This document shows positions 4,426 through 54,371 of a DNA stretch of 64,000 bases, in pieces. Position numbers and translations under genes: made by a program. The first letter of the stretch is position 1, and each line of letters starts with the position of its first letter. Under the pieces are notes generated by a model. That model was given only the letters and a program-made list of their open reading frames with translations. It searched no databases and had not been told where the DNA came from. Location of the stretch: contig OZ220482.1 of the NCBI GenBank assembly GCA_965116145.1, forward strand, positions 1,916,143 to 1,980,142. The letters run 5' to 3'. This DNA is from Thermoanaerobaculia bacterium. Lineage in GTDB: Bacteria; Acidobacteriota; Thermoanaerobaculia; Multivoradales; Multivoraceae.

Positions 4426-4596
4426 CTAGCAGCCTGTCGCAAGGGTCACGCCGTACTCGTTTCCGCCATGCATCTCCGTCCGGCTGCGTTGCTTTTCACT
4501 CAGACATGCACGACATGCGTCGCCATGATGAAGCCTTGCCGGACGGGCGCCTGACCGCTCCCGGTGCGACACGAACGTCCGCCACGGATTGCCAGG
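4426..4596 (-). repeat. MITE-like element copy (full length, orientation B), in divergent moaC/GT2 intergenic region
   Basis: ctagcagcctgtcgc...gccatgcatctccgtccggctgcgttgcttttc...ccttgccggacgggcgcctgaccgctcccggtgcgacac...ccacggattgccagg. Shares both conserved cores and terminal inverted repeats with the 8555..8722 copy. Confidence 0.7.
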
Positions 4597-6010: not shown

Positions 6011-6107
6011 CCTGGCAGTCCGTGGCAGAAGTCCGTGTCGCACCGTCGCACCGGGAGCGGTCAGGCGCCCGCCCGGCAAGGGTGCGATAGTCGTGCATAC
6101 TGCCAGG
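6011..6107 (+). repeat. MITE-like element copy (internally deleted, orientation A) just downstream of rsmB stop
   Basis: cctggcagtccgtggcagaagtccgtgtcgcacc(gtcgcacc)gggagcggtcaggcgcccgcccggcaagg...gcatactgccagg. Left TIR plus core 1 (with an 8-bp duplication) joined to a right-TIR remnant. Confidence 0.6.
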
Positions 6108-8554: not shown

Positions 8555-8722
8555 CTAGCAGTCCGTGGCAGAAGTCGCGTGTCGCACCGAGAGCGGTCAG
8601 GCGCCCGTCCGGCAAGGCGCGAAGGTTACGCATATTGGGGCATATGTGACCGAAGAGCAACGCAGCCGGGCGGGATGCATGGCTGAAACGAATGCAACGT
8701 GACTTCTGCCACGGACTGCTAG
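8555..8722 (+). repeat. MITE-like element, full-length reference copy (orientation A)
   Basis: 168 bp. TIR ctagcagtccgtggcagaagt ... acttctgccacggactgctag. Core 1 gtgtcgcaccgagagcggtcaggcgcccgtccggcaaggcgcg; core 2 gaagagcaacgcagccgggcgggatgcatggc. Sits 20 bp upstream of fmt start. Confidence 0.8.
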
Positions 8723-11179: not shown

Positions 11180-11346
11180 CCTGGAAACCTGCCGCGGATG
11201 TGCGTGTCGCGCCGGGAGCGGTCAGGCGACCGTCCGGCAAGGCGCGGCGAGAGAACGTGCGGGGACGATTGCGACCGAGGAGCCGTGCAGCCGGGCGGCA
11301 TGCAGGGGTGCTCGCATGCGACGCGACGTTCGCCGCGGACTGCCAG
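11180..11346 (+). repeat. MITE-like element copy (orientation A) between ftsK start and ksgA stop
   Basis: cctggaaacctgccgcggatgtgcgtgtcgcgccgggagcggtcaggcgaccgtccggcaaggcgcg...gcagccgggcggcatgcag...gacgttcgccgcggactgccag. Ends 7 bp from ftsK GTG. Confidence 0.7.
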
Positions 11347-11391
11347 ACCGGTCATGGCTGGAACATGCACGAGCATGTGATTGTAGCCCGC

Positions 11392-12192
11392 TCAGTCGAA
11401 TATGGCTATATACGGCTTCATCTGGCGAAACAGCCTGACGAACTCCGGCACATCGAGGCTCTCGGCGCGCACCCTGAGCGGCAGGCCCAGCGCCGCGAGG
11501 GCCGCCTCGGCTGCAGGCCGACCCACCGTCGGCCGGAAGTTGTTGACGAGGGTCTTGCGTCGCTGGCTGAACGCGGTGCGCACGAAGCCGGCAAAGGCCG
11601 ACCACTCCGTGTCGTCGACTGGCGGCGCCTTGCGCTCGAATCCCACGAAGGCGCTGGTCACTGCCGGCGGCGGCACGAAACTGCCGGGAAGAACGACCGA
11701 CAGTCGACCCACCCTTGCCCGCGCACCGACCAGGACACTCAGTCCGCCGTAGTCCGAATCGCCCGGAGATGCCGCCAGCCGGTCCGCAACTTCCCGCTGC
11801 ACCAGAAACGCTGCACGGGCGCCGATCGGCGCCCGCTCGAGAACGGCGAGAACGATCCGGGTGGCGGCGTTGTACGGCAGGTTGCCGGCGATCCGGGTCG
11901 AAGCCGGCAGTGTTTCGTAGCGAAGATCGCAACCGTCGCCTGCGGCCAGGACCAGACGCGAATCGGCGATCCTCCGGCGCAGCTCCAGTGTCCAGGCCAG
12001 GTCGAGCTCGCAGGCGATCACCCGGCTCGCGCCGTACTCCAGGAGCAGGCGCGTGAGCACGCCGCCGCCGGGGCCGATCTCGACGACCCTGCAGCCGGCG
12101 ACATCCAGGAACTCGACCGCGGGAACCGCGGAACCCGGGTGCCGAAGGTGATGCTGACCAAGGGACTTCCGAAGCGGGGGAACGCGGCTCAC
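11392..12192 (-). CDS. rsmA: 16S rRNA (adenine1518/1519-N6)-dimethyltransferase
   Basis: LRKSLGQHHLRH, VVEIGPGGGVLT, IAGNLPYN. GTG 12192 chosen (266 aa) so the gene does not overlap the divergent GGDEF gene; track ATG 12300 is the alternative. Confidence 0.8.
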   Translation of the reverse strand: MSRVPPLRKSLGQHHLRHPGSAVPAVEFLDVAGCRVVEIGPGGGVLTRLLLEYGASRVIACELDLAWTLELRRRIADSRLVLAAGDGCDLRYETLPASTRIAGNLPYNAATRIVLAVLERAPIGARAAFLVQREVADRLAASPGDSDYGGLSVLVGARARVGRLSVVLPGSFVPPPAVTSAFVGFERKAPPVDDTEWSAFAGFVRTAFSQRRKTLVNNFRPTVGRPAAEAALAALGLPLRVRAESLDVPEFVRLFRQMKPYIAIFD

Positions 12193-23241: not shown

Positions 23242-23323
23242 TGCGAAAGGGGGGACTCGAACCCCCACCCCTGCCGGGACCAGATCCTAAGTCTGGCGCG
23301 TCTACCAGTTCCGCCACTTTCGC
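23242..23323 (-). tRNA. tRNA-Leu (anticodon TAG)
   Basis: Reverse complement GCGAAAG-TG-GCGGAACTGGTAGACGCG-CCAGA-CTTAGGA-TCTGG-long variable arm-GGGGGTTCGAGTCCCCC-CTTTCGC-A. Perfect 7-bp acceptor stem, class II variable arm, no encoded CCA. Confidence 0.8.
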
Positions 23324-23373
23324 CCGATCGCAACCAGTCCGACAGCGCTGCGGCAGCCGTCGCGGGAGAAGCT

Positions 23374-23449
23374 TGGTGAGCCGCCTAGGAATCGAACCTA
23401 GAACCCACAGATTAAGAGTCTGTTGCTCTGCCAATTGAGCTAGCGGCCC
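23374..23449 (-). tRNA. tRNA-Lys (anticodon CTT)
   Basis: Reverse complement GGGCCGC-TA-GCTCAATTGGCAGAGC-A-ACAGA-CTCTTAA-TCTGT-GGGTT-CTAGGTTCGATTCCTAG-GCGGCTC-ACCA. Cloverleaf with encoded CCA. Confidence 0.85.
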
Positions 23450-23745
23450 AGCCTCCGCGCCGCGTGTCGAGCCACATCCGGCGTCCGGCAGCGGCGTGCG
23501 ACTATACCTGATCGCGAGCCGCCCGAACCACCCTGGACAAAGCGGACGATCTCCACCCGGTCGCCGTCCCGGAGCCGGGTGTCGCCGAACCGGACACGGG
23601 GCACCAGCTCGCGGTTGACCTCGACCGCCACCGTCTTCGGGTGCTGATCCAGGCTCGCCAGCAGATCGAGCACGCTGGCATCGGCCCCCGGCGCCGCCAG
23701 CTTCCGTTGGCGGCCGTTGACCTGGAGTCGGAGCGAGGACGCCAT
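23440..23745 (-). CDS. ThiS/MoaD-family sulfur-carrier-like protein with C-terminal extension beyond the Gly-Gly
   Basis: MASSLRLQVNGRQRKLAAPGADASVLDLLASLDQHPKTVAVEVNRELVPRVRFGDTRLRDGDRVEIVRFVQGG, then 35 more residues (SGGSRSGIVARRCRTPDVARHAARRLGR) before the stop. The 3' end overlaps tRNA-Lys by 10 nt. Confidence 0.5.
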   Translation of the reverse strand: MASSLRLQVNGRQRKLAAPGADASVLDLLASLDQHPKTVAVEVNRELVPRVRFGDTRLRDGDRVEIVRFVQGGSGGSRSGIVARRCRTPDVARHAARRLGR

Positions 23746-23757
23746 CGCAGACCTGTG

Positions 23758-24162
23758 TCAGCCCGGAGCCAGCTCCGCCGTGCGGTCCGGCGCATCGGAC
23801 CACAGTCGCTCCAGCCGGTAGAGCTCCCGCCGTTCGGGGTCGAACACGTGGACAATGACATCGCCGTAGTCGAGCAGCACCCACTGCCCGCGGCCGGCCC
23901 CCTCCAGATGCAGAGGCCGGGCGCCGCCGGACCGCAGCCGCGCCTCAACGGCTTCCGCGATGGCGCTCACCTGACGCGCGTTGGCGCCGCTGCAGATGAC
24001 GAAGTAGTCCGTGAAATCGCTGACATCCGCAAGCTCCAGCACCCGCACGTCCCGAGCCTTGCGGTCAAGCGCCGCGGCCGCGGCCGCGCGGACACGATTC
24101 AGGGAGTCGCGGTGCCCGTCCGGGTCTGGCTGTGGGGCCTGGAGCGTCTGCGTTTGCGTCAA
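23758..24162 (-). CDS. rsfS: ribosomal silencing factor RsfS (Iojap)
   Basis: DYFVICSGANARQVSAIAEAV, WVLLDYGDVIVHVFDPERRELYRLERLW. Start uncertain; TTG 24162 overlaps nadD stop (TTGA). Confidence 0.8.
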   Translation of the reverse strand: MTQTQTLQAPQPDPDGHRDSLNRVRAAAAAALDRKARDVRVLELADVSDFTDYFVICSGANARQVSAIAEAVEARLRSGGARPLHLEGAGRGQWVLLDYGDVIVHVFDPERRELYRLERLWSDAPDRTAELAPG

Positions 24163-24806
24163 CGGTACAACCCGTACTTGCGACAGTACCGCAGCACGGC
24201 GGCAGGCATCAACTCGGCATCCACCTCGTCGCCGCGAGCCAGCCGCCGGCGGATGGAGCTCGAGGAAGCGTCGACCGAGCGATGCCGGATCAGGTCGAGC
24301 CCGCGGGCGCCCTCGGCCACCGCCACGACAGCAGGATCCAGCCCTCGCTCGCCCGGTCGGGCCAGGACCACCAGCCTGACAGCGCCGATCAGGTCCTCGC
24401 ACCGCCGCCACGACAGCAGGGTATTGAAGCTGTCGACGCCGAGCAGCAGGTGCAGGTCGGCAGCCGCGTCCTCCGCCGCGAAGCGTTCCACGGTGTCGAC
24501 CGTGTACATGGTGCGGCCGAGGTCGAGCTCGGCGTCCGAGACGACGAGCTCGGGCCAGGGCAGAAGCGCCAGTTCGACCATCGTGTTCCGCTTGAGCGCG
24601 GACACCTTCGTCCCCCGGGGCTTGTGCGGCGGACAGGCAGTCGGCAGATAGTGGACGACGTCCAGGCCAAGGAGCTCCCTTGCGGCAAGCACCGGCAGGA
24701 TGTGGCCGTTGTGGATCGGGTCGAAACTGCCGCCGAACAGCCCGATCTTCACGGCAGGCCCCGCGGCCGCCCGTGGCGAAGGTCTCGCTGCGCCGGCTTC
24801 AGCCAT
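24159..24806 (-). CDS. nadD: nicotinate-nucleotide adenylyltransferase
   Basis: IGLFGGSFDPIHNGH..., SSIRRRL. ATG 24806 lies inside a MITE copy; GTG 24749 (VKIGLFGG) is the alternative. Confidence 0.85.
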   Translation of the reverse strand: MAEAGAARPSPRAAAGPAVKIGLFGGSFDPIHNGHILPVLAARELLGLDVVHYLPTACPPHKPRGTKVSALKRNTMVELALLPWPELVVSDAELDLGRTMYTVDTVERFAAEDAAADLHLLLGVDSFNTLLSWRRCEDLIGAVRLVVLARPGERGLDPAVVAVAEGARGLDLIRHRSVDASSSSIRRRLARGDEVDAELMPAAVLRYCRKYGLYR

Positions 24807-24933
24807 GCATCCCGTCCGGCGGCGTTGCTCTTCGCTCACCTGTGCCCCGGCACGCTCACTCACCGCGCCCTGGCCGGAACGGGCGCCTGACCGCTCTCGG
24901 TGCGGCACGCGCGTTCACCACGGGCTGCGCAGG
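24803..24933 (-). repeat. MITE-like element copy (orientation B) in obg-nadD junction
   Basis: gccatgcatcccgtccggcggcgttgctcttc...ccctggccggaacgggcgcctgaccgctctcggtgcggcacgc...cacgggctgcgcagg. Contains the obg stop (24860) and the nadD ATG (24806). Confidence 0.7.
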
Positions 24934-25984
24934 CAACCGCCGCCTCGTCGACCAGGTCGACGGCGTCGGCCGCATCCAGGAGACGGCGCAGCTCGCGGAC
25001 AAGGCAACCCAGGCCGGCGCCTTCGACCGCCGATATCTCCAGCTTCGGCACGCCCTCCCGGCGGGCCAGCTCGGCCAGGCCGCGGCGCCGCTCCGGCGAC
25101 GCGATGTCGAGCTTCGAGCCGCACAGCAGGCGGGGTCGGCGGAGAAGATCGTCGTTGAACTCTCCCAGCTCGGCGCAGACCGTGTCGAAGGCCCCCTCGA
25201 CCGTAACGGCGGCTCCCTCCGGCTGCGGTCCCAGGTCGACCAGGTGGAGCAGGACACGGCAACGCTCCACGTGGCGCAGGAATCGGGCGCCCAGCCCCGC
25301 ACCCTGCGCCGCGCCGGCGATCAGCCCAGGCAGGTCGGCGATGACGAAGGGCTCCGCTTCGACCGGCACTGCCGGCGGACCGACGACGCCGAGCTGGGGA
25401 ACCAGCGTGGTGAAGGGGTAGTCCGCGACCCGCGGCCTTGCGGCGGTCAGCCTGCTGATGAGTGTCGACTTGCCGGCGTTCGGGAGGCCGACGACGCCGA
25501 CGTCGGCCAGCAGCTTCAACTCCAGGCGGAGACGGCGTTGCTCCCCCGGCGTTCCGGGTTCAACCCGTCTCGGCGCGCGCTGGCGTGCACTCCTGAAGCG
25601 GGCATTGCCGCGGCCGCCGGCGCCGCCGCGCGCCACCACGAGCTGTTCGTCCTCTGCCAGGACCTCGCCCAGGCGCTCACCGGTCCCGGCATCACGGACT
25701 TCGGTGCCGAGCGGCACCGGAATCACCAGGTCGCGGCCGCTCCTGCCGGTCCGGTTCGACCCCTCGCCGTGCCGGCCGCCGTCAGCCTGATATGCCGCCG
25801 GAAAGCTCAGACGATAGAGAGTGCCCAGACCCGTTGCGCCGACCAGGACGACATCACCGCCGGCGCCGCCGTCGCCGCCGGAGGGACCGCCGCGCGGCAC
25901 GAACTTCTCCCGCCGGAACGCCAGACAGCCGTCTCCACCGGAACCCGCGAGGACATCGATGACGGCCTCGTCGACGAAGTGCAT
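24860..25984 (-). CDS. obg: GTPase Obg/CgtA
   Basis: MHFVDEAVIDVLAGSGGDGCLAFRREKF, GGRGGDGG-type glycine-rich fold, G-domain GLPNAGKSTLIS, DLPGLIAGA. ATG 25984. Last ~20 aa (TESGQAPVPARAR) are encoded by the MITE copy. Confidence 0.9.
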   Translation of the reverse strand: MHFVDEAVIDVLAGSGGDGCLAFRREKFVPRGGPSGGDGGAGGDVVLVGATGLGTLYRLSFPAAYQADGGRHGEGSNRTGRSGRDLVIPVPLGTEVRDAGTGERLGEVLAEDEQLVVARGGAGGRGNARFRSARQRAPRRVEPGTPGEQRRLRLELKLLADVGVVGLPNAGKSTLISRLTAARPRVADYPFTTLVPQLGVVGPPAVPVEAEPFVIADLPGLIAGAAQGAGLGARFLRHVERCRVLLHLVDLGPQPEGAAVTVEGAFDTVCAELGEFNDDLLRRPRLLCGSKLDIASPERRRGLAELARREGVPKLEISAVEGAGLGCLVRELRRLLDAADAVDLVDEAAVACAARGERACRTESGQAPVPARAR

Positions 25985-26018
25985 CAGCCGCTCCCGGCGG
26001 CGCTGGCAGTCCTGTCCC

Positions 26019-26276
26019 TTACCCGGCCGGGTGGACGTTGACCACCGTGCCGCGGCGACCGCGGTTGCGGAACTCGACCACACCGTCCGCACGCGCGAAC
26101 AGCGTGTCGTCTCTGCCCCGGCCCACGTTCTCACCAGGGAAGAAGCGCGTACCGCGCTGGCGAACGATGATCGTGCCGCCGGTCACGCTCTGCCCCGCGT
26201 AGCGCTTCACGCCCAGGTTCTTGGGGTTCGAATCGCGGCCATTGCGACTTGAGCCCTGGCCCTTCTTGTGCGCCAT
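26019..26276 (-). CDS. rpmA: 50S ribosomal protein L27
   Basis: [48 protein letters not shown]. Confidence 0.95.
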
Positions 26277-26307
26277 CTCTCTGGACCTCCGTTGCTCCGG
26301 CGAGCAG

Positions 26308-26637
26308 CTACGCCCCGCCGGTCCGCTCGATCGTCTCGATCCGGAAGCGCTGCAACTCCTGCCGGTGCCCGCGGCGCCGACGGTAGCCCTTGCGGCGCTT
26401 GAACTTGAACACGACGATCTTCGGACCGCGCAGGTCGCCGACGAGCTGCGCCCGCACTCGGGCGCCCTCGACGACGGGCTCGCCCACCTCGGGCTCGCCC
26501 TCGCCGCCGCCGATCATCAGCACCCGGTCGAAGAACACCTCCGAGCCGGTCTCCGCTCCGCCAAGCCGCTCCAGGTCGACAACATCGCCTTCCTCGACCC
26601 GGACCTGCTTGCCGCCGGTCTCTATCACTGCGTACAT
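26308..26637 (-). CDS. rplU: 50S ribosomal protein L21
   Basis: [25 protein letters not shown]...[21 protein letters not shown], 109 aa. Track ORF trimmed to ATG 26637. Confidence 0.95.
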
Positions 26638-26803
26638 CGTTGCTCTCTCTGCGGCGCTCGGAGTGCGTCCAGCGCCGAACATCGTCATCTGCTGTCGCCG
26701 GTCATCTCGACACGCGCAGAGGACAGATCCGGCAACCTGCGCCACGCTGCCGGAGCGGCGAGGCAATTCGACGACAGACAGTAGCACCGGCCCGGTCATT
26801 CGG

Positions 26804-28174
26804 TCAACGCGCGACGCTGGCAGCCCGCCCCGATCGCGACGCACCCGGCGACAGCGGCAGCTCGACCTCGAAGGCCGCGCCGGGTCGCTCGTCTTCGCGG
26901 ACGCGCGCCTCGCCGCCATGGGTGGCGGCAATCCGTCGGACGATCGCCAGGCCGAGACCGGTGCCGCCGCGCCGCCCCGAATGGAACAGGTCGAAGACCC
27001 GCTCCCTCTCCGCGGGGTCGACTCCCGGCCCGTTGTCGCACACCGCGAGCACCACACCTCCCGGCCGGTTCTCCGCTTCGAGACGAAGAACCGGCCGGTC
27101 GCAGTCGCTCATCGCCGCCAGCGCATTGTCGATCAGGTTGAGCAGCAACTGGTTCGCCTGCTCGCGATCCACCTGGAACGGTGTTCCGCCCGTGCGGTCG
27201 TCGATCTCAACCGGGATGCCGGCGGACCGGAGCTTGCCGGCCACGACCTCGGCGCCGTGGCGCAGCAACTCGTCCGCCGTCGTCTGTTCGAGCTTGAGCG
27301 CGGCCGGACGTGCGTACCTCAGAAAGTCCGACACCAACCGCTCCAGCCGGCCGACTTCGGACCGCGTGATCGCGATCAGACGACCCGAGGAGCCGCCGAC
27401 GGCCGACGCGCCGGTGGACATCTCTTCCTGCAGCATCTGCATGTTCAGGTTCAGGGAGTTCAGAGGGCTGCGAATTTCGTGGGCGAGACCCGAGGCGAGA
27501 GTGCCGACATAGGCCATCTGCTCTGCCTCCTGAGCCTGCCGTTCGGCCAGAGCCGTTCGCCGCGCCAACCGGCTGTACAGCAGATAGCCCACCGCGAACA
27601 GCGCCACGGTCAGGACCGCGACGATTGCCGTCTGCCGCAGCAGTTCCTGGCGCAGGGTCGCCAACCGCTGCTGCAACTCGGATCTCGAGATCCCGATCTG
27701 GAACGTGCCGACCGTGCCGACCGGCACCTCGACGTACTCGAAGGGCACCTGCCGGCTGACGGTGTCGGCGACCAGTGCCGGCGACTCCAGGTTCGGAGGA
27801 TTCTCGCCGTCGGTGCGGGTTTCCTCCCGGCGGTTGCGGAACACCAGGTGGCCTTCGCGATCGAAGACCTCGACCGTCTCCACGATGTCGCGCTGGATCA
27901 GGACCGAATCGATGTAGCGCCGGGTCTCGGACTCGGTCGCCATCGCCGTATAGAGATCGCGGCCGGTGCTCTCGACCCGGCCGGCGATCCGCTCCGCCAG
28001 CTCTTCAGCTTCCGTTCGCGCCTCGATCACGATCCGGTTCAGCTCCCGTTGCGACAGCGACCGGAAGATCAGCCAGCCGAACAGGGAGAGATCGGCAAAC
28101 AGAAAGGCGCCCAGCACCGCGGCGAGGATGCGTCGACGCCGCTGGCCGCCGTCGCTGCCGAGCCAATCCCGCAC
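26804..28174 (-). CDS. sensor histidine kinase (orphan in this window)
   Basis: Two TM segments flanking a periplasmic region; HisKA H-box LASGLAHEIRSPLNSL; HATPase N/G boxes LLNLIDNA, DNGPGV, GGTGLGLAIV. GTG start. Confidence 0.8.
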   Translation of the reverse strand: MRDWLGSDGGQRRRRILAAVLGAFLFADLSLFGWLIFRSLSQRELNRIVIEARTEAEELAERIAGRVESTGRDLYTAMATESETRRYIDSVLIQRDIVETVEVFDREGHLVFRNRREETRTDGENPPNLESPALVADTVSRQVPFEYVEVPVGTVGTFQIGISRSELQQRLATLRQELLRQTAIVAVLTVALFAVGYLLYSRLARRTALAERQAQEAEQMAYVGTLASGLAHEIRSPLNSLNLNMQMLQEEMSTGASAVGGSSGRLIAITRSEVGRLERLVSDFLRYARPAALKLEQTTADELLRHGAEVVAGKLRSAGIPVEIDDRTGGTPFQVDREQANQLLLNLIDNALAAMSDCDRPVLRLEAENRPGGVVLAVCDNGPGVDPAERERVFDLFHSGRRGGTGLGLAIVRRIAATHGGEARVREDERPGAAFEVELPLSPGASRSGRAASVAR

Positions 28175-28183
28175 GCTCGGACG

Positions 28184-28213
28184 CTAGCAGCCCGTGGTGG
28201 ACGTTCGGGTTGC
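28184..28213 (+). repeat. MITE-like element fragment (terminal repeat only)
   Basis: ctagcagcccgtggtggacgttcgggttgc, 10 bp upstream of the kinase GTG start, in the divergent intergenic region with the ABC substrate-binding gene. Confidence 0.45.
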
Positions 28214-28257
28214 TTCAGGCGGTGTACGATGAGGCCGTGCGTGGCGCGCTACCGTCG

Positions 28258-29841
28258 ATGCGGCTGCTGGCGGTCGCCGGGCTGGCCGTGGCCTTCGGTT
28301 CGGGTTGTACGTCGCCCGCGCGGCGCGACAGCAACCGGCTCAACGTCGGCATGCGCTTCGAGTACACGACGCCGAACGAGCTGATCGGGCCGGCGACGCT
28401 CTCATACAACGCGATCAACGGCCAGTTCTTCCTTCCCCTGATGGAAGAACGACCTGACTTCCGCGACGCGCCGCCGACCTGGGCGCCGGGGCTGGCGTCC
28501 GGCTGGGAGTTCTCGGAAGACCGCCGCCAGCTGACCGTGCGGCTGCGTCCCGACGTGCTGTGGAGCGACGGTCGGCCGGTGACCGCCGAGGACGTCCGGT
28601 TCACCTGGCGGGCGCAGACCGACCCGGATGTCGCCTGGAACTACTCGTTCTCCAAGGAGTCGATCACCGATGTCGAGGCGGTCGACGCCGGCACGGTCCG
28701 GTTCCACTTCGACACCGCCCTGGCCAGCGTGCTCGACGACGTCTCGACCGGACGGATCCTGCCCCGGCATGCCTGGGAGACGCGGCCCCTCGCCGAGTGG
28801 CGCAGCGACCCGGGCTGGTTCTTCGAGCACCTGGTCACCAACGGCCCCTTCCTGCTCGAGGACCGAACGCCCGGCCAGGAGCTCGTTCTCGGCCGCAACC
28901 GGAACTACTTCGCAACCGGCTTCCCGCGGCTGGACCGGGTCGTTCTGCGGGCGGCTGCCGACGGCGCGGCACTTGCCAACCGGCTGCTCTCCGGCGAACT
29001 CGATGTGGTCAGCGGACTCGGCGCCACGGAAGCGCAGCGACTGGAGGGCCAGCCCGGCGTCGTCGTCACCGCGTACGCCAACCGCCAGTTCACCTTCGTG
29101 TCGTGGAACACCCGACGGCCCTGGTTCCGGGACGCCGCGACCCGGCGGGCGCTGGCGATGGCGATCGACCGGCAGGCGATCGTGGACACCATCTGGCACG
29201 GCTACGCCGAGGTCGGCAACAGCCCCATCATCTCGAGCGTCTGGGCGCACGACCCGGAGATCGAGCCCTGGCCCCACGACCCGGGGGCCGCTCGCGACGC
29301 GTTGACCGAAGCCGGCTGGGAAGACGGTGACGGCGACGGCATCCTGGAGCGGGACGGCAAGCCGTTCCGGTTCGAACTGGCGACGTTCGCCGGAGCGGCC
29401 GCTCGCTGGAACGCGATGCAGATGATCCAGGCCGATCTTCGCGCAGTCGGCATCGACGCGCGGCCCCGGCGCGTCGAAGCCAACGTCCTGATTCAGCGGA
29501 TGCGCGGCAAGAACTTCGACGCCGCGGCTTCCTCCTTCGCGATCGACACCGGTCTCGACCTCCGCTACGCCTTCCACAGCCGGGAGATTCCCGGCGGCCA
29601 CAACTACGCAGCCTACGCCGACTCCGAGGTCGATCGGCTGCTCGACGCCTTCGCCGCCCGCCTCGACCCGATGACCGGCCTGGGTGATCTCCACCGGCTG
29701 CAGCGCATCCTGCACGAGGACCAACCGATGCTGGTGCTCTGGGAGCCGCTGAGTCTGGCGGCCTTCGACGAGGACGTCGAATCGGTGGCGCCGAACGTGC
29801 TGAGTCCACTCGCGAACCTCAAGGAATGGGCCTGGCGCTGA
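28258..29841 (+). CDS. ABC transporter substrate-binding lipoprotein, family 5 (peptide/nickel/opine type)
   Basis: Lipobox signal MRLLAVAGLAVAFGSGC. SBP_bac_5-like body (WSDGRPVTAEDVRFTW, NRNYF..FPRLDRVV, GWEDGDGDGILERDGKPF). Confidence 0.8.
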   Translation: MRLLAVAGLAVAFGSGCTSPARRDSNRLNVGMRFEYTTPNELIGPATLSYNAINGQFFLPLMEERPDFRDAPPTWAPGLASGWEFSEDRRQLTVRLRPDVLWSDGRPVTAEDVRFTWRAQTDPDVAWNYSFSKESITDVEAVDAGTVRFHFDTALASVLDDVSTGRILPRHAWETRPLAEWRSDPGWFFEHLVTNGPFLLEDRTPGQELVLGRNRNYFATGFPRLDRVVLRAAADGAALANRLLSGELDVVSGLGATEAQRLEGQPGVVVTAYANRQFTFVSWNTRRPWFRDAATRRALAMAIDRQAIVDTIWHGYAEVGNSPIISSVWAHDPEIEPWPHDPGAARDALTEAGWEDGDGDGILERDGKPFRFELATFAGAAARWNAMQMIQADLRAVGIDARPRRVEANVLIQRMRGKNFDAAASSFAIDTGLDLRYAFHSREIPGGHNYAAYADSEVDRLLDAFAARLDPMTGLGDLHRLQRILHEDQPMLVLWEPLSLAAFDEDVESVAPNVLSPLANLKEWAWR

Positions 29842-29857
29842 TTCTGCGACCGCGCCG

Positions 29858-30823
29858 GTGATCCGCTTTCTCCTGCGCCGCCTGCTGGCCGCAGCGGTGC
29901 TCTTCGTGATCGTCCTTACCCTCGCGTTCGCCGTGGTGGCGCTGGCGCCCGGCGATCCGATGGCGCCCGCCGACCCGCGGCTGCCGCCGGAGCAGGCCGA
30001 TCGGTTGCGCGCGCTCCACGGGCTCGATCAGCCGCTTCCCCTGCAGTACCTCCGCTGGCTGGCGGCGGTCGTCCTGCACTGGGACTGGGGACAGTCGTAC
30101 CGGACCGGACAGCCGGTCGCCGAACTCCTGTTCGACGCCCTGCCGCCCACCCTGCTGCTGGCCGGCGCGGCCTCGATCGCCCAGTACCTGCTCGGGATCG
30201 GACTCGGCCTGATGGCGGCGGCCCGTCCGAACTCGTGGCTCGATCTGGGTGTCCGGATCGCGAGCCTGGCTGTCTACGCGATGCCGACCTTCTGGCTCGC
30301 CCTGATGGCGGTGCTGGTGCTCGCCGTCGGCCTGGGCGCGGCGCCGGCCGGCGGCATGACCTCCGCCGCGGCGTTCGAGCTCGGCCCGGCCGCGGCGGTT
30401 CTCGACGTGCTGGCGCACCTCTGGCTGCCGGCGCTGGTGCTAGGTCTGTCGATGGCCGGCGACATCGCCCGCTACACCCGGAATTCGCTGATCGAATTCC
30501 AGGTCAGGGAGGCCGGGCGCGCGGCGCGCGCGCGCGGTCTGTCCGAGGCGCGGATCCTGCTGGTGCACGGCCTTGCCCACGCCGCCCCGCGCCTGCTGCA
30601 GATCGCCTCGGTGTCGACGCCGCTGCTGCTCTCGGGCGCCGTCGTGGCCGAGGTCGTGTTCGCCTGGCCCGGCCTCGGCACCGCAACGCTCGTGGCAATC
30701 CAGGCGCGCGACACTCCCGTGGTCCTCGCGGCCACCGCCTACGGCGCCGCCCTGGTCATCGCCGCGTCGTTGACCGCAGACCTCCTCCTCGCACGCCTGG
30801 ACCCGAGGATCCACGCGCCATGA
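29858..30823 (+). CDS. ABC transporter permease (DppB/OppB-like)
   Basis: Six TM helices, permease EAA-like motif (ARARGLSEARILLVHGLAHAAPRLL). GTG start 16 nt after the SBP stop. Confidence 0.85.
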   Translation: MIRFLLRRLLAAAVLFVIVLTLAFAVVALAPGDPMAPADPRLPPEQADRLRALHGLDQPLPLQYLRWLAAVVLHWDWGQSYRTGQPVAELLFDALPPTLLLAGAASIAQYLLGIGLGLMAAARPNSWLDLGVRIASLAVYAMPTFWLALMAVLVLAVGLGAAPAGGMTSAAAFELGPAAAVLDVLAHLWLPALVLGLSMAGDIARYTRNSLIEFQVREAGRAARARGLSEARILLVHGLAHAAPRLLQIASVSTPLLLSGAVVAEVVFAWPGLGTATLVAIQARDTPVVLAATAYGAALVIAASLTADLLLARLDPRIHAP

Positions 30824-31863
30824 GTCGTCCTCCCCTCCCAGCCGCGGTTCGCATCGGCGCCGGCATCCTGGGCGCTCTCGTGCTGCTCGCGGCCGCCGCA
30901 CCGCTGCTCGCTCCGATCGACCCGGCGGAGCAGCTCGATGCCGCCGAAGCCAGCCGCCGGCCTCCCCTTTCCTCTCTCCTCGTCGTTCGCACACTCGACC
31001 GCGGGCCGTTCCTGGCGGAACGGGTATCGGTCGACGGCGACGATCTGGTGCTCGAGCGGCGCTCGGGTTCCCTGCGCATACCGCTCGGTTCCGCCGCCAA
31101 CGTCCGCGACGACCGCATCACCGAGCGACGGCGGAACTGGCTGGGTACCGACGCCCTGGGCCGGGACATCTTCTCGCGGCTCCTCCATGGCGCCCGGGTA
31201 TCGCTGGCCATCGGCCTGCTTGCCGCCGCGCTGGCGCTGGTTGCCGGCACCCTCGTCGGAGCCTGCGCCGCGATCGGCGGGCGGTTGGTGGATCAGGTGC
31301 TGATGCGCGTGGTGGACGGCCTGCTCTGCTTCCCCCACCTGGCCCTGGTGCTTCTGCTGGCGGCGCTCTACCGGCCCGACACCACGCTCCTCGTCCTGCT
31401 CATCGGCGGTACCGGCTGGATGGGACTCGCGCGCCTGGTCCGCGCCGAGCTGCTGCGGCTGAAGCAGGAGCACTTCGCCCTCGCCGCGGCCGCCGCCGGC
31501 CGCTCGCCGACCGGCGTCCTCGTCCGCCACCTGCTGCCGAACGCCGCCACGCCGCTGCTGGTCGACGCGAGCCTCCGGGTAGGCGCCAGCATCCTGGTCG
31601 AGTCGGCTCTGTCCTTCCTCGGGCTGGGCGTCCAGCCGCCGCACCCGAGCTGGGGCTCGATGATCGCCGACGGCCAGGACCACCTCGCCACGTCGTGGTG
31701 GATCGCCGCCTTCCCCGGTCTGATGGTCGTCGCCGCCGTGCTCGGCTCGAGCCTGCTCGCCGACGGCCTGAACGACCGGCTCGCCGGCGTCCGGATCGGC
31801 GGCAGCGGCGCCGTCCGTCGGCGCTCGCCGTGGGCCGTCCGCACCTGGCTGGGCGAAGGATGA
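30820..31863 (+). CDS. ABC transporter permease (DppC/OppC-like)
   Basis: ATG 30820 overlaps the upstream stop (ATGA). N-terminal TM, extended periplasmic loop, LGTDALGRDIFSRLLHGAR. Track ORF 30235..31863 trimmed. Confidence 0.85.
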   Translation: MSRPPLPAAVRIGAGILGALVLLAAAAPLLAPIDPAEQLDAAEASRRPPLSSLLVVRTLDRGPFLAERVSVDGDDLVLERRSGSLRIPLGSAANVRDDRITERRRNWLGTDALGRDIFSRLLHGARVSLAIGLLAAALALVAGTLVGACAAIGGRLVDQVLMRVVDGLLCFPHLALVLLLAALYRPDTTLLVLLIGGTGWMGLARLVRAELLRLKQEHFALAAAAAGRSPTGVLVRHLLPNAATPLLVDASLRVGASILVESALSFLGLGVQPPHPSWGSMIADGQDHLATSWWIAAFPGLMVVAAVLGSSLLADGLNDRLAGVRIGGSGAVRRRSPWAVRTWLGEG

Positions 31864-32891
31864 CCGGCAGGCCCCCGCTCGCAACTTCGAGCTTCGACTA
31901 CGACCTGCCGCCGGCAGCGATCGCTCAGCACCCCGGCAGACGTGGAGAGAGCCGCCTTCTTGTGCTCGGTCCGGCAAGCGAGGAACGCCGCTTCGCGGAC
32001 CTGCCCGACCTGCTCGATTCCGGCGACCTGCTGATCGTCAACGACACCCGGGTCATTCCGGCCCGGCTGCGGGCGCGGCGGCGCACCGGCGGCCGGGTGG
32101 AGGTTCTTCTCGTCGAGCGGGAGGGCGCCGCTTCTTGGTGGTGCCTGCTCCGCCCGGGCCGGCGCATGACCACCGGTACTCAGCTCGCGATCGACGGCGG
32201 TCCGGCAGCGCAGGTCGAAGAACGCGCGGACGGCCGCTTCCTGCTGGCCTTCGAGCAGCCGGTAGAACCCCTGCTCGACGCGATCGGCGAGACTCCCCTG
32301 CCGCCCTACATCGAGCGGCCGGCCGCGCCGCAGGACCGGGAGCGCTATCAGACGATCTACGCCGCGCAGCCGGGCGCGGTCGCGGCGCCCACCGCCGGCC
32401 TCCACTTCACTCCCGCGATCCTGGAGGCGCTCGAACGGCGCGGGGTCCGGCAGGCGAGTCTGACGCTCCATGTCGGTCCGGGCACCTTCCGACCGGTCAG
32501 GACGGAGAATCCGGCAGCGCACGTCATGGACACCGAGCTGTTTGCTGTTCCGGACGCCACGGCGGCAGCGATCGCCGCCGCGCGGCAGGGCGGCGGCCGC
32601 ATCGTGGCCGTCGGCACGACCGTGGTCCGCGCTCTCGAGACCGCCGCGGCCGACGCCGGACAGGTTGCCGCGGGCGCCGGACGCACCGCGCTCTACATCC
32701 GCCCCGGCTTCGAGTTCCGGGTCGTCGACCGCCTGATCACGAACTTCCACCTGCCCCGATCCACCCTGCTCATGCTGGTCTGCGCGTTCGCCGGACGCCG
32801 CCGCATCCTCGACGCCTACCGTGAGGCGATACGGAGCGGATTCCGCTTCTGTTCCTACGGCGACGCGATGCTGGTCGACAGGATGCGGTGA
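31860..32891 (+). CDS. queA: S-adenosylmethionine:tRNA ribosyltransferase-isomerase
   Basis: FDYDLPPAAIAQHP, LLIVNDTRVIPARL, ETPLPPYIERP, GLHFTPAILEAL, GTTVVRALE. ATG 31860 overlaps the permease stop (ATGA). Confidence 0.9.
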   Translation: MTGRPPLATSSFDYDLPPAAIAQHPGRRGESRLLVLGPASEERRFADLPDLLDSGDLLIVNDTRVIPARLRARRRTGGRVEVLLVEREGAASWWCLLRPGRRMTTGTQLAIDGGPAAQVEERADGRFLLAFEQPVEPLLDAIGETPLPPYIERPAAPQDRERYQTIYAAQPGAVAAPTAGLHFTPAILEALERRGVRQASLTLHVGPGTFRPVRTENPAAHVMDTELFAVPDATAAAIAAARQGGGRIVAVGTTVVRALETAAADAGQVAAGAGRTALYIRPGFEFRVVDRLITNFHLPRSTLLMLVCAFAGRRRILDAYREAIRSGFRFCSYGDAMLVDRMR

Positions 32892-34422: not shown

Positions 34423-34898
34423 CAGTCCCGGCCTGCGCCCAGGCCGAGCTTGCGGCGCGGAACGGCGGCGCCCCGCAGCAGAACAGGCACCGCGAACAGG
34501 ACGGCGTAGACGCCAAGGGTCAGGATCGGCACCAGCGGCATCGCCTCGACCTGTTCCCGGCGCGCCATGGACCGAACCAGGTAGAGCCAGCCCGGCGGTC
34601 CGAACAGATAGAGCACGAACAGAAGCCGGGTACGGGCCACCTGCAGAATGACGTCGTCCAGGCGGCGGCGGCCGGCGTGACGAACCGGACCCCTGCGCTG
34701 AACGTAGACGTTGCCGAAGAACCAGCCGGTGAACGCGGCCAGGATGTAGAGAGGATAGAGCGCCAGCTCGAAGGTCAGGTTCCAGCGCAGGACGCCGATC
34801 TGGGCAAGGATGCCGACCGACCACGCCGCCAGGCTGGACGAAAGGACGATCGTCTCCAGCAGTCCGTGGCGAACGTCGCGCTGCAATCGTTTCGGCAT
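34422..34898 (-). CDS. small polytopic membrane protein of unknown function (co-operonic with larE/larB)
   Basis: 158 aa, four predicted TM segments (LETIVLSSSLAAWSVGILAQIGV, LALYPLYILAAFTGWFF, LLFVLYLFGPPGWLYLV, PLVPILTLGVYAVLFAVPVLL). ATG is the second ATG of the MITE-terminal ATGCATG. Confidence 0.45.
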   Translation of the reverse strand: MPKRLQRDVRHGLLETIVLSSSLAAWSVGILAQIGVLRWNLTFELALYPLYILAAFTGWFFGNVYVQRRGPVRHAGRRRLDDVILQVARTRLLFVLYLFGPPGWLYLVRSMARREQVEAMPLVPILTLGVYAVLFAVPVLLRGAAVPRRKLGLGAGRD

Positions 34899-35022
34899 GC
34901 ATCCCGTCCGGCTTCGTTGACCTTCGGTCAGAGCCGGCCCGGTATTCTCACCCACGGCGCCGTGCCGGAGGGGCGCCCGTCCGTTGTCCGCGCGGCACGG
35001 ACGTTCACAACGGACTGCCAGG
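34894..35022 (-). repeat. MITE-like element copy (orientation B) between the membrane-protein gene start and gcvH stop
   Basis: ggcatgcatcccgtccggcttcgttgaccttc...ggaggggcgcccgtccgttgtccgcgcggcacggacgttcacaacggactgccagg. Confidence 0.7.
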
Positions 35023-35448: not shown

Positions 35449-35614
35449 CTAGCAGCCCGTGGCAGAAGTGCGCGCCGCACCGAGAGCGGTCAGGCGCCCG
35501 TCCGGCAAGGCGCGATGAACGAGCATATTGAGGTATATGTGAGAGAAGAGCAACGCAGCCGGACGGGATGCATGGCCGATCGAATGCAGCGCTACTTCTG
35601 CCACGGGCTGCGAG
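35449..35614 (+). repeat. MITE-like element copy (full length, orientation A) overlapping the 3' end of gcvT
   Basis: ctagcagcccgtggcagaagtgcgcgccgcaccgagagcggtcaggcgcccgtccggcaaggcgcg...gaagagcaacgcagccggacgggatgcatggcc...ctacttctgccacgggctgcgag. Its terminal repeat encodes the last 7 aa and the TAG stop of gcvT. Confidence 0.8.
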
Positions 35615-53693: not shown

Positions 53694-53757
53694 AAGAGCA
53701 ACGCAGCCGGACGAGCGTCTGACCGCATCTCGGTACGACGCGCCACGGACTGCTAGG
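53694..53757 (+). repeat. MITE-like element half copy (core 2 plus terminal repeat) 8 bp upstream of the DUF4390 start
   Basis: gaagagcaacgcagccggacgagcgtctgaccgcatctcggtacgacgcgccacggactgctagg. Confidence 0.55.
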
Positions 53758-53765
53758 GTCGCGCC

Positions 53766-54371
53766 ATGAGAGTCCCGCGGGCGGGACGGCTGATCTGCGC
53801 ACTCGGCCTGTCGAGCGTTCTGGGCTGCGGCGCACTTGCAGCCCAGCCTCCGCGTGAAGCGGCCGGCCGGTACGCCGCTGCCGCCATCGTCGGGCTCGCG
53901 GCGGTGCGCGAGGGTCCGGTGGTTCTGGTCAGTTTCCGGCTGGACCACGCGCTCGACGAACGCACGTGGGAAAAGATCGAGAGCGGGCTGCCGACCGGCT
54001 TCACCTACGACATCGAGGTCCGGCGGGCCAGACGGAACTGGTTCGACCGGACCGTCGCCGCCACGCGCCTGCAGGTTGTAGCGATGTACAACGCCCTGAC
54101 CCGGGACTACCGGGTCAGCTTCAAGCGCGACGGCGAGCTCTACGCCAGCCGCGTCGTGACCTCACCGGAGGACCTGGAACAGGCGTTGACCTCATTCGAC
54201 GGGTTGTCGGCCGTCGAGCTCGAAAACGAGGAACCCGGGCCGTTGATCGTGCGGGTGCGCGCCGAGCTGCGAACCCGGACCCGCCTCGGTCTGATCCCGG
54301 ACCGGGTCCACACCGCCTGGGCGCACACCGGACCCATCCGGCGTCGGGCCGGGAGCGGAGAGGCAAGGTGA
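53766..54371 (+). CDS. DUF4390-family periplasmic protein (signal peptide)
   Basis: Signal MRVPRAGRLICALGLSSVLGCGALAAQ. 201 aa. Positioned directly upstream of, and translationally coupled to, the ntrY-like kinase, as in rsmB-DUF4390-ntrYX loci recalled from other bacteria. Confidence 0.55.
   Translation: MRVPRAGRLICALGLSSVLGCGALAAQPPREAAGRYAAAAIVGLAAVREGPVVLVSFRLDHALDERTWEKIESGLPTGFTYDIEVRRARRNWFDRTVAATRLQVVAMYNALTRDYRVSFKRDGELYASRVVTSPEDLEQALTSFDGLSAVELENEEPGPLIVRVRAELRTRTRLGLIPDRVHTAWAHTGPIRRRAGSGEAR

What the first reader, a model, noticed from the sequence alone, without database searches (positions are those of the whole stretch)
28184..28213. Element terminal repeats sit 7-20 nt upstream of start codons of four genes (fmt, ftsK, sensor kinase, DUF4390-ntrYX-selB operon)
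The TIR end ...CCACGG(G/A)CTGC(T/C)AG lies immediately 5' of the starts of fmt (8535), ftsK (GTG 11173), the orphan kinase (GTG 28174; solo TIR) and the DUF4390 gene (53766; half element). The consistent polarity and spacing suggest the element end carries an outward-facing promoter or 5'-UTR signal, as shown for Correia elements in Neisseria. Alternatively it inserts preferentially at promoter-proximal sites.
Basis: inference. Interest (0 to 1): 0.5.

Follow-up and report, generated by a model that had tools for sequence, protein, structure and literature searches.

The report
TA-targeting MITE beside gene starts
A small mobile repeat of an acidobacterial genome lies next to start codons because it inserts into the rare TA dinucleotides of promoter -10 boxes, stop codons and ribosome-site junctions and rebuilds them on insertion; it does not carry a complete promoter of its own.

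Summary
A ~166-nt repeat with ~21-30-nt terminal inverted repeats occurs 9 times in the window. One end lies 7, 9, 9 and 19 nt before the starts of ftsK, the kinase, DUF4390 and fmt. The same holds for a GT2 gene (6 nt) and gcvH (24 nt).

The element is a MITE with a TA target-site duplication, mostly in CTAG. It occurs in Thermoanaerobaculia/'Ca. Multivorans'-type MAGs. Element-free relatives give empty sites.
- At DUF4390, moaC and (without the TG) the kinase, relatives already have a TGnTAnnnT-type -10 box 6-11 nt before the start. The MITE entered its TA, and the terminal ...CTGC|TA rebuilds TGnTA.
- ftsK-fmt is a 12-nt operon junction in relatives.
- The conserved ftsK promoter lies upstream of the element.
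- In other genomes the R end overlaps the upstream stop codon (TA+G) and the L end abuts AGGAG-ATG.

No sigma-70-like promoter lies inside any copy. Orientation is biased: 21 of 27 tandem contexts, p=0.006.

Verdict: a new member of a known kind. The adjacency reflects target choice plus selection. The promoter idea survives only as a hybrid junction promoter at 2-3 loci. Two things stay unexplained: a strand asymmetry in folding, and one orthologous copy with 0/166 changes against 8% in its flanks.

The parts
28185..28220 (+). Copy H, the site of the finding. It is a ~34-nt L-arm remnant (TA + GCAGCCCGTGGTGGACGTTCGGGTTGCTTCAGGC). It lies between the kinase -10-like hexamer (TAGCGT on the - strand, 28181-28186) and the -10-like TACGAT (28225-28230) of the divergent SBP gene.
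   Evidence: Profile match to model positions 2-33 at 8.0 bits, against 1.2 bits for the R arm. The empty site in L033 reads ACGCTA|CAAGAGAGTCGG|GGTGTACGAT, where the window reads ACGCTA|34 nt|GGTGTACGAT.
26804..28174 (-). Histidine kinase gene (HisKA + HATPase_c), start GTG 28174. Upstream it reads TGC TAGCGT CCGAGC GTG with no SD, so a leaderless-type layout is inferred.
   Evidence: Pfam. The N-terminus aligns with L033. L033 has TTG TAGCGT TCAACGGA ATG.
28237..29841 (+). Divergent SBP_bac_5 lipoprotein gene. TACGAT, 6 nt, then GTG 28237 is conserved in L033 (TACGAT GATTCC GTG).
53706..53756 (-). Copy I, an L-arm half element; rearranged inner sequence continues to about 53691. Its L end abuts TAGGGT CGCGCC ATG of DUF4390.
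   Evidence: Profile match to model positions 2-58 at 18.8 bits. Relatives L037-L039 lack it and read CTGG TAGTGT (6-7 nt) ATG.
53766..54371 (+). DUF4390 gene, first gene of the DUF4390-ntrY-ntrX group.
   Evidence: Pfam; synteny lpxC-DUF4390-ntrY-ntrX in relatives.
8555..8722 (+). Copy C, full length with perfect 21-nt TIRs and CTAG at both ends. It lies between the ftsK stop (8798) and the fmt start (ATG 8535). It reads R->L in the sense of the genes.
   Evidence: Relatives have a 12-nt ftsK-fmt spacer.
11181..11346 (+). Copy D, full length with degenerate TIRs. It lies in the ftsK 5'UTR, 7 nt before GTG 11173.
11380..11408 (-). Sigma-70-like ftsK promoter TAGCCA-17-TACAAT, upstream of copy D. 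It is conserved in L040 and L041.
4426..4595 (-). Copy A, full length, in the moaC/GT2 divergent gap. Its L end is 6 nt before the GT2 ATG at 4602 (CCAG|GAGGAG|ATG). Its R end regenerates TGC TAGGTT on the moaC strand.
   Evidence: The gap is 26 nt in L040, with the target AACC|TA|ACAG.
6012..6105 (+). Copy B, internally deleted (~94 nt). It lies between the rsmB stop (6131) and the conserved HU promoter (5947-5918).
24765..24930 (-). Copy E, at the obg-nadD junction, in the minority L->R sense. The obg ORF reads 23 codons into the L end. nadD GTG 24752 lies 12-14 nt (boundary approximate) from the R end.
   Evidence: In L033 obg and nadD overlap (ATGA).
34856..35021 (-). Copy F, in L->R sense, inserted in codon 4 of the gene after gcvH. 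That gene now starts at an ATG inside the element (34898; MPKRLQRDVRHGL, then LETIVLSS).
   Evidence: Relatives start MKGLETVILSS, 15-22 nt after gcvH.
35449..35614 (+). Copy G, in R->L sense, inserted at a CTAG near the 3' end of gcvT. gcvT now ends at a TAG inside the R end (35592). The L end lies 24 nt before the gcvH ATG at 35424.
   Evidence: Relatives L034 and L036 have 16-17-nt gcvT-gcvH gaps. L035 holds a decayed L half in the same orientation.

Best explanation
The repeat is a non-autonomous DNA transposon (a MITE) of about 166 nt. It has ~21-30-nt terminal inverted repeats (GCAGYCCGTGG... / ...CCACGGRCTGC). It duplicates a TA on insertion and prefers NTAG, most often CTAG.

In this 69% G+C genome TA and CTAG are very scarce. 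The tolerated TA sites cluster in gene-expression signals:
- the TA that opens the -10 hexamer of promoters lying 6-11 nt before a start codon (leaderless or short-leader genes);
- the TA of TAG/TAA stop codons;
- stop/Shine-Dalgarno junctions such as TAGGAG and TAAGGAG.

Because TA is duplicated and the element begins with G and ends with ...CTGC, insertion rebuilds the signal on both sides. TA+G restores a TAG stop for the upstream gene. ...CTGC+TA+flank restores TAnnnT, now with a TGn prefix. ...TAG/TAA+GGAG keeps the SD. Such insertions survive, so element ends are found a few nucleotides before start codons.

Most copies are then simply co-transcribed, as part of an operon spacer or a 5'UTR.

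The orientation bias (L arm towards the downstream start) points to an orientation-dependent cost. The most likely cost is that the opposite sense carries a strong internal SD plus ATG (GAGGAGCAACGATG) reading out through the R end, and also folds more stably.

Shown: the repeat family, the TA/CTAG flanks, the empty sites, the pre-existing -10 hexamers, the upstream ftsK promoter and the orientation bias. Inferred: that the genes concerned are leaderless, that the hybrid TGnTAnnnT junctions are active, and the reason for the orientation bias.
For: Family and ends:
- Nine copies lie in the window and 32 loci in Acidobacteriota MAGs.
- In the alignment of 34 full copies the flanking dinucleotide is TA in 11 of 34 at each end. 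Its single-transition derivatives TG/CA account for a further 16 (L end) and 12 (R end).
- The terminal 4-mer is CTAG in 6 (L) and 7 (R) copies.
- TA makes up 0.83% of dinucleotides. CTAG occurs 18 times against 180 expected, and 8 of the 18 are at or next to element ends.

Empty sites:
- L033 is syntenic over window 18090-36726 at ~78% identity and has no copy.
- L034 and L036 (gcv operon), L037-L039 (lpxC-DUF4390) and L040-L041 (rsmA-ftsK-fmt...moaC) also have none.

Pre-existing signals at the insertion points:
- DUF4390: relatives read CTGG TAGTGT, 6-7 nt, ATG; the window reads CTGC TAGGGT, 6 nt, ATG.
- Kinase: L033 reads TTG TAGCGT, 8 nt, ATG; the window reads CTGC TAGCGT, 6 nt, GTG.
- moaC: relatives read TGT TAGGTT, 11 nt, ATG; the window reads TGC TAGGTT.
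- TAnnnT lies 5-9 nt before 15 of 244 predicted starts, against about 1 per spacing bin elsewhere.

Operon junctions:
- The R end overlaps the upstream stop codon by 1-3 nt in 8 loci (L002, L004, L005, L009, L020, L022, L025, L028). In several of these the TA+G reads as the stop codon; the gene calls are crude.
- L-end flanks read CTAG|GAGCGGACGATG, CTAA|GGAGTCAACCGGCATG, CTAG|GGCAGGAGCACTCATG and the like.

Transcription:
- No promoter-like site lies inside any copy, and the conserved ftsK promoter is upstream of D.

Orientation:
- 21 versus 6 in tandem gene contexts, p=0.006.
- In the L->R sense an internal ATG-led ORF runs out through the R end in most copies. Two copies in that sense lie close to a start: E has it closed by a stop (MHG*), and F has it fused in frame as a new N-terminus.
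Against: - No autonomous transposon with matching ends was found in the DNA held, so the transposase family is inferred from the TA/CTAG target only.
- Only about a third of copies still show TA at a given end.
- Gene calls in the 32 loci come from a home-made codon-usage caller and are approximate.
- The leaderless reading rests on sequence geometry, not on mapped transcription starts.
- A passive, co-transcribed element does not explain why the orthologous copy in L017/L021/L032 has 0 of 166 changes against 101 of 1200 in the flanks.
- It also does not explain why the L->R strand holds 150 G.U against 37 A.C and folds better in 30 of 34 copies while the mRNA sense is mostly R->L.
- The proposed cause of the orientation bias is untested and rests on few copies.
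Confidence: 0.7

Rival explanations
1. Hybrid junction promoter. The element end supplies the TG of an extended -10 (…C-TG-C), the duplicated TA supplies the first two bases of the hexamer, and the host flank supplies nnnT. The junction is then an active promoter that starts transcription at or next to the start codon of the kinase, DUF4390 and moaC. This is compatible with the best explanation, and it is the surviving part of the first reader's idea.
For: - TGCTAGCGT-6-GTG, TGCTAGGGT-6-ATG and TGCTAGGTT lie at three junctions.
- No SD is present at the kinase or DUF4390.
- Relatives conserve TGGTAGTGT 6-7 nt before the DUF4390 ATG in three genomes, and TGTTAGGTT before moaC in two.
- TAnnnT is enriched 5-9 nt before starts in this lineage.
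Against: - The -10 hexamer is host sequence, not element sequence.
- TGn precedes only 4 of 15 such hexamers, and 2 of those 4 are the element junctions themselves.
- None of about 25 junctions in other genomes has TAnnnT followed by a start at that spacing.
- No -35 is present.
- Read-through from lpxC cannot be excluded for DUF4390.
Confidence: 0.35
2. The terminal ~40 bp of the element carries a complete outward-facing promoter or a portable 5'UTR signal, as reported for Correia elements, and this promoter drives the four genes.
For: - The same arm faces the start at 7 of 9 window copies.
- There is a strong orientation bias across genomes.
- In copy F the element does supply a new ATG and N-terminus, but from the other arm and in the other sense.
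Against: - No sigma-70-like site lies in any copy, and the arm is G+C-rich with no -10-like hexamer.
- The conserved ftsK promoter lies upstream of D.
- fmt and gcvH were operonic before insertion, with spacers of 12-32 nt.
- Flanks in other genomes carry the host SD directly at the element end.
Confidence: 0.1
3. Domesticated cis-acting element. The repeat is, at least at some loci, a functional structured RNA or protein-binding site in operon spacers and 5'UTRs, for example in mRNA processing or stability, or in control of downstream translation. Its position and polarity would then be selected for that function.
For: - The orthologous trio L017/L021/L032 has 0 of 166 mismatches against 8.4% in the flanks (Fisher p=2e-6 to 5e-4), while non-orthologous copies are at most 94% alike.
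- 92.7% of cells pair; 17 of 41 pairs show compensatory changes and exceed all shuffles and slid controls, including 4 of 4 pairs of the central hairpin.
- The orientation bias.
Against: - Other orthologous copies decay: L035 holds a half copy about 70% like G; H, I and B are truncated.
- Four relatives lack the element at the same junctions with intact operons.
- The better-folding strand (L->R) is antisense to the usual mRNA, and this asymmetry is the same in both sense classes.
- There is no Rfam match.
- Covariation between TIRs is expected anyway, since a transposase recognises both ends.
Confidence: 0.2

Closest known systems
Correia elements (CREE) of Neisseria
   Same: Both are small (about 100-160 bp), non-coding, TIR-bounded repeats with a TA duplication. 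Both are very often intergenic and close to gene starts, are co-transcribed, and fold as long hairpins. In Correia elements, junctions with the duplicated TA are reported to create -10 boxes (from my own knowledge of the Correia literature; not re-read here).
   Different: Correia ends are reported to carry their own promoter hexamers. Here no promoter-like site lies inside any copy, and the -10 hexamers at the junctions pre-exist in element-free relatives. Here there is also a marked L/R asymmetry and a strong orientation bias. The hosts are different phyla; the sequences were not compared directly.
IS630/Tc1-mariner-type MITEs, e.g. RUP of Streptococcus pneumoniae
   Same: TA target duplication with a preference for CTAG, which is the classical IS630 target (from my own knowledge). 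Short non-coding derivatives with TIRs, presumably mobilised in trans.
   Different: No parent IS630-family element with matching ends was found or could be searched for. The copies are longer (166 nt) and have a conserved asymmetric interior.
MIRUs of Mycobacterium
   Same: Repeats sitting in the spacers of operons, between the stop codon of one gene and the start of the next, in one preferred orientation (from my own knowledge).
   Different: MIRUs have no TIRs or TA duplication, and they carry small ORFs that overlap the stop and start codons. Here a 27-codon ORF is intact in only about 19 of 34 copies.
Putative mobile promoters / IS-generated hybrid promoters
   Same: The general idea that a mobile sequence lands next to a start codon and contributes part of a promoter (PMC3488235, title and abstract only).
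   Different: Here the element contributes at most the TGn prefix, and the host contributes the hexamer.

Membership tests
MITE (generic) | Short (<~500 bp) and without conserved coding capacity | tested here: met
   The profile is 166 nt. The only recurrent ORFs are broken in many copies.
MITE (generic) | Terminal inverted repeats | tested here: met
   Copy C has perfect 21-nt TIRs. The terminal helix pairs in 90% of cells over 34 copies.
MITE (generic) | Target-site duplication | tested here: met
   TA flanks 11 of 34 copies at each end, and TG/CA transition derivatives flank most of the rest. The empty sites hold a single TA: AACC|TA|ACAG, ACGC|TA|CAAG, CTGG|TA|GTGT.
MITE (generic) | Many dispersed copies, with presence/absence between related genomes | tested here: met
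   There are 9 copies in 64 kb and at least 13 in OZ243982.1. Nine syntenic loci from relatives were examined: eight have no copy and L035 has only a decayed half copy.
MITE (generic) | A cognate autonomous element with the same ends | tested here: inconclusive
   No extra TIR pairs or transposase were seen in the window plus 32 loci. There was no hit in plasmids, phages or viral contigs. Whole genomes could not be scanned again.
IS630/Tc1-mariner-derived MITE | TA duplication with CTAG-type target preference | tested here: met
   CTAG is the commonest terminal 4-mer, tied with CTGG at the L end, in a genome where CTAG is 10-fold depleted. The inferred ancestral targets are CTAG (gcvT), GTAG, TTAG and CTAA.
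IS630/Tc1-mariner-derived MITE | TIR similarity to an IS630-family transposon present in the host | not testable with these tools
Correia element | Promoter hexamers inside the element ends | tested here: not met
   The consensus scans found no site inside any of the copies.
Correia element | Neisseria Correia consensus sequence and an IHF site | not tested
   No Correia sequence was compared. Membership is not claimed, only functional resemblance.
REP/BIME | 20-40-nt palindromic units associated with RAYT, with no TIR or TSD | tested here: not met
   The unit is 166 nt with TIRs and TA duplication.
Any Rfam RNA family | Covariance-model match | tested here: not met
   At the gathering threshold only three tRNAs were found. 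There was no hit at E<=10 on copy C with its flanks.

The most novel reading that the evidence does not exclude
The ends of this MITE family may be 'signal-compatible' by design. G... / ...CTGC around a duplicated TA would simultaneously rebuild a TAG stop, a TGnTAnnnT extended -10 and a TAG/TAA-GGAG junction. This would let the element colonise exactly the TA dinucleotides of expression signals in a TA-poor genome. Some copies would then have been taken over by the host, as hybrid leaderless promoters (kinase, DUF4390, moaC), as donors of new start codons and N- or C-termini (copies F, E, G), or as a strictly conserved operon-spacer element (the L017/L021/L032 copy).
Probability: 0.3. Interest if true: 0.55.

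Novelty: new member of a known kind. Interest (0 to 1): 0.4.

Why it matters
It explains a striking regularity, repeat ends a few bases before start codons, by target choice plus signal regeneration rather than by a mobile promoter.

It also adds four things:
- It documents an undescribed MITE family in Thermoanaerobaculia-type Acidobacteriota, a phylum with almost no mobile-element biology.
- It gives sequence-level evidence that some genes in this lineage are leaderless, with TAnnnT 6-9 nt before the start.
- It provides natural before-and-after pairs at nine junctions. These show how operon junctions, stop codons, N-termini and promoters are remodelled by one small element.
- It warns annotators that ORF ends and starts next to these repeats are partly element-derived.

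Tried and rejected
- **'First start after a stop' artefact.** The terminal CTAG holds an in-frame TAG before the kinase and DUF4390 ORFs, so I suspected the starts were artefacts. Alignment of the N-termini with relatives rejected this.
- **A coding element.** I considered a small ORF, MIRU-like or peptide-encoding. The 27-codon R->L ORF is intact in only about 19 of 34 copies, and the compensatory hairpin changes alter it.
- **A known RNA.** I considered an SRP-like motif and Acido motifs. Rfam gives nothing, even at E<=10.
- **Sigma-70 or sigma-54/ECF-type motifs in the arms.** The scan finds none, and inspection by eye found only weak partial matches.
- **Strand asymmetry caused by selection in the mRNA.** The G.U excess is the same in copies of either sense.
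- **Gene conversion as the cause of the perfectly conserved orthologous copy.** This is unlikely because non-orthologous copies are at most 94% alike.
- **Searches that found nothing.** The element in plasmids, phages and viral contigs. An exact look-up of the window's own GcvH. Literature on MITEs in Acidobacteria or on these MAGs.
- **Limited return.** The metagenome scan with the SBP protein gave only one relative, L033, but it was the key empty-site locus.

Full report
**1. What is at the site**

The window is 69% G+C. It holds nine copies of one repeat.
- Full copies, each ~166-170 nt: A 4426-4595 (-), C 8555-8722 (+), D 11181-11346 (+), E 24765-24930 (-), F 34856-35021 (-) and G 35449-35614 (+).
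- Partial copies: the internally deleted B 6012-6105 (+) and two L-arm remnants, H 28185-28220 (+) and I 53706-53756 (-).

Copy C has perfect 21-nt terminal inverted repeats, CTAGCAGTCCGTGGCAGAAGT...ACTTCTGCCACGGACTGCTAG. The interior is asymmetric, so I call the two arms L and R. The L arm is followed by GAGCGGTCAGGCGCCCGTCCGGCAAGG.

The terminal motif occurs 11 times against 0.21 expected.

The finding's coordinates (28184-28213) hold copy H. By profile it is an L arm, at 8.0 bits against 1.2 for the R arm.

**2.

The distances from the element end to the start codon are 19 nt (fmt ATG 8535), 7 nt (ftsK GTG 11173), 9 nt (kinase GTG 28174) and 9 nt (DUF4390 ATG 53766).

I first suspected an artefact. 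The terminal CTAG contains an in-frame TAG, so the 'first start after a stop' would fall close by automatically. The starts are nevertheless genuine:
- fmt matches Pfam from residue 9, and its nearest homologues are 332 aa against 333 here.
- The kinase N-terminus aligns with that of the syntenic locus L033.
- DUF4390 aligns residue by residue with three relatives.
- FtsK relatives begin with the same MIRSDD.

Two more cases exist: GT2 (ATG 4602, 6 nt away) and gcvH (ATG 35424, 24 nt away).

**3. It is a mobile element with a TA target**

A 24-nt core pattern found 32 loci in Acidobacteriota MAGs. These are labelled Thermoanaerobaculia, 'Ca. Multivorans', and single MAGs labelled Vicinamibacteraceae and Holophagales. 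At least 13 of the loci lie in one 4.17-Mb chromosome.

In an alignment of 34 full copies the element proper is GCAG...CTGC, flanked by TA.
- TA is present in 11 of 34 copies at each end. Most of the others have TG or CA, one transition away.
- CTAG is the commonest terminal 4-mer, tied with CTGG at the L end.
- In the window TA is 0.83% of dinucleotides. CTAG occurs 18 times against 180 expected from base composition, and 8 of the 18 are at or beside element ends.

Related, syntenic DNA without the element supplies empty sites.
- L033 covers window 18090-36726 at about 78% identity and has no copy.
- L034 and L036 cover the gcv operon, L037-L039 cover lpxC-DUF4390, and L040-L041 cover rsmA-ftsK-fmt-rsmB-HU-GT2-moaC. 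None has a copy.

The empty sites hold a single TA exactly where the window has TA-element-TA: AACC|TA|ACAG (A), ACGC|TA|CAAG (H) and CTGG|TA|GTGT (I). For G the inferred ancestral sequence is GCTAGC within ...CCG AAG GCT AGC GTC TGA.

There is no match in Rfam, plasmids, phages or viral contigs. No parent transposon was seen.

**4. Why the ends sit next to start codons**

The empty sites show what the TA belonged to. There are three kinds of target.

(a) -10 hexamers of leaderless-type promoters.
- Three relatives conserve CTGG TAGTGT, 6-7 nt, then ATG before DUF4390, with no SD. The window has ...CTGC TAGGGT CGCGCC ATG.
- L033 has TTG TAGCGT TCAACGGA ATG before the kinase. The window has ...CTGC TAGCGT CCGAGC GTG.
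- Two relatives have TGT TAGGTT, 11 nt, then ATG before moaC. The window has ...CTGC TAGGTT at the R end of A.
- The neighbouring SBP gene keeps TACGAT, 6 nt, then GTG in both the window and L033.
- TAnnnT lies 5-9 nt before 15 of 244 predicted starts in the DNA held, against about one per spacing bin elsewhere.

So the element entered the TA that opens the hexamer. The duplication restored the hexamer, and the terminal ...CTGC placed TG at -15/-14.

(b) Stop codons and stop/SD junctions.
- In other genomes the R end overlaps the upstream gene's stop by 1-3 nt in 8 loci.
- L-end flanks read CTAG|GAGCGGACGATG, CTAA|GGAGTCAACCGGCATG, CTAG|GGCAGGAGCACTCATG and CCAG|GAGCGAGACGATG.
- For L004 the original spacer can be reconstructed as GCC TAA GCG ATG.

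(c) Operon spacers in the window.
- In relatives ftsK-fmt is TAG, 12 nt, then ATG.
- In relatives gcvT-gcvH and gcvH-next gene are 15-32 nt apart.

**5. Promoter test**

The consensus scan found no sigma-70-like site inside any copy.

It did find TAGCCA-17-TACAAT at 11408-11380 (-). This is conserved as TAGCCA-17-TACAAT/TAGAAT in L040 and L041 and lies upstream of copy D. D is therefore part of a ~200-nt ftsK 5'UTR.

The HU promoter TTGACA-18-TACATT is also conserved, and it lies beyond copy B.

What remains of the promoter idea is the hybrid TGnTAnnnT junction at three loci. In these the hexamer is host DNA. TGn precedes only 4 of 15 candidate hexamers, two of which are the junctions themselves. 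Its contribution is therefore uncertain.

**6. Polarity**

In tandem gene contexts the L arm faces the downstream start and the R arm faces the upstream stop in 21 cases, against 6 in the reverse arrangement (binomial p=0.006). Without the window the count is 17 against 4. The gene calls behind these counts are my own and approximate.

Both termini are alike, so stop and -10 regeneration cannot explain the bias.

In the L->R sense the conserved interior reads GAGGAGCAACGATG, an SD followed by an ATG. The ORF that follows runs out through the R end in most copies. The two window copies in that sense fit a cost of outward translation:
- E has the ORF closed (MHG*).
- F has it fused in frame, giving the downstream gene a new N-terminus, MPKRLQRDVRHGL-LETIVLSS, in place of MKGLETVILSS.

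This is inference from few cases.

**7. Gene remodelling seen at the junctions**

- gcvT now ends at a TAG seven codons into G.
- obg reads 23 codons into E, whereas in L033 obg and nadD overlap by ATGA.
- GT2 has no SD in relatives (ACAGCCCGA ATG). In the window it has CCAG|GAGGAG ATG at the junction with A.
- H is trimmed to 34 nt between two back-to-back -10 hexamers.

**8. Unexplained**

(i) Strand asymmetry. The L->R strand holds 150 G.U against 37 A.C in the consensus pairs, with 24 pair columns against 7 (p=0.003). It folds better in 30 of 34 copies, with a mean of -95.7 against -82.5 kcal/mol. Yet the mRNA sense is mostly R->L. The asymmetry is the same in both sense classes, so it is intrinsic to the element.

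(ii) One perfectly conserved copy. The orthologous copy in L017/L021/L032 has 0 of 166 differences against 101 of 1200 in the flanks (p=2e-6). Non-orthologous copies are at most 94% alike, and other orthologous copies decay, as L035 does.

(iii) Internal covariation. Compensatory changes maintain not only the TIR helix (8 of 13 pairs) but also a central hairpin (4 of 4 pairs).

These points keep open a domesticated or structure-dependent role.

**9. Comparison and verdict**

The element behaves like the TA-duplicating MITEs, Correia and RUP/IS630-type. It meets the generic MITE criteria, except that no parent element was found. It is not a Correia element and not a REP.

Its promoter interpretation is only partly supported. 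Its alternative, an insertion preference, is the better account once made precise as TA/CTAG targeting of expression signals followed by their regeneration.

The window's proteins are 100% identical to proteins on a 3,728,387-nt public contig. That contig is presumably the source genome and the place for a full census.

Noticed in passing
L006:4522-4589: A 68-nt insert made of two perfect hairpins (GGTGGCGCG-TCTT-CGCGCCAC and TCCGAGCGCCCG-TCAT-CGGGCGCTCGGA) is nested inside the MITE copy. It is absent from the orthologous copy in L004. It may be a second, REP-like mobile repeat.
   Followed up: no
L017:6334-6499, L021:2537-2702, L032:3208-3373: The orthologous MITE copy is identical in three species-level MAGs (0 of 166 differences), while the 600-nt flanks differ by 5-10%. 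This suggests constraint on this copy.
   Followed up: partly
window 34856-34898 (- strand): The gene after gcvH (34422-34898) appears to start at an ATG inside MITE copy F. Its first 13-14 codons are element sequence and replace the ancestral MKG... N-terminus.
   Followed up: partly
window 24860-24930 and 35592-35614: The obg and gcvT ORFs run into MITE copies E and G (23 and 7 codons) and stop there. Their C-terminal tails are therefore element-derived.
   Followed up: partly
window 8723-8797: Besides copy C, the window has 76 extra nt between the ftsK stop and fmt that relatives lack. These contain a second CTAG directly abutting C and a TIR-like stretch (GGACCCCGTGGCCAGCCAGGCTGC). They may be the remains of an older insertion or an excision footprint. 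The profile gives no hit.
   Followed up: partly
window 28225-28239; L033 about 9990-10005: The SBP_bac_5 gene has TACGAT, 6 nt, then GTG with no SD, conserved in L033. Together with the kinase it forms back-to-back leaderless-type promoters in an intergenic region of 62 nt (49 nt in L033).
   Followed up: partly
whole window: CTAG occurs 18 times against about 180 expected from base composition, and TA is only 0.83% of dinucleotides. Nearly half of the CTAG sites are at or next to MITE ends.
   Followed up: yes
L003, L026, L028, L029 (alignment A1 columns 124-142): Four copies from OZ243982.1 carry an extra ~19-nt repeat of the internal CGACCGAGGAGCAACGAT-like motif. L009 has an 8-nt duplication of GACGAGGG. 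The purine-rich GAGGAG motif therefore varies in copy number.
   Followed up: no
L007:380-420: A TIR-like stretch (GGCGGCCCGTGGCGGGAGTCGC) lies 4 nt from a CAT (a start on the other strand). It may be another solo end next to a start codon.
   Followed up: no
window 53691-53720: In copy I the L-arm core is joined to the reverse complement of the R-half core (…CGTCCGGC|TGCGTTGCTCTTCGG). This looks like a snap-back rearrangement at the internal CCGGC stem.
   Followed up: no
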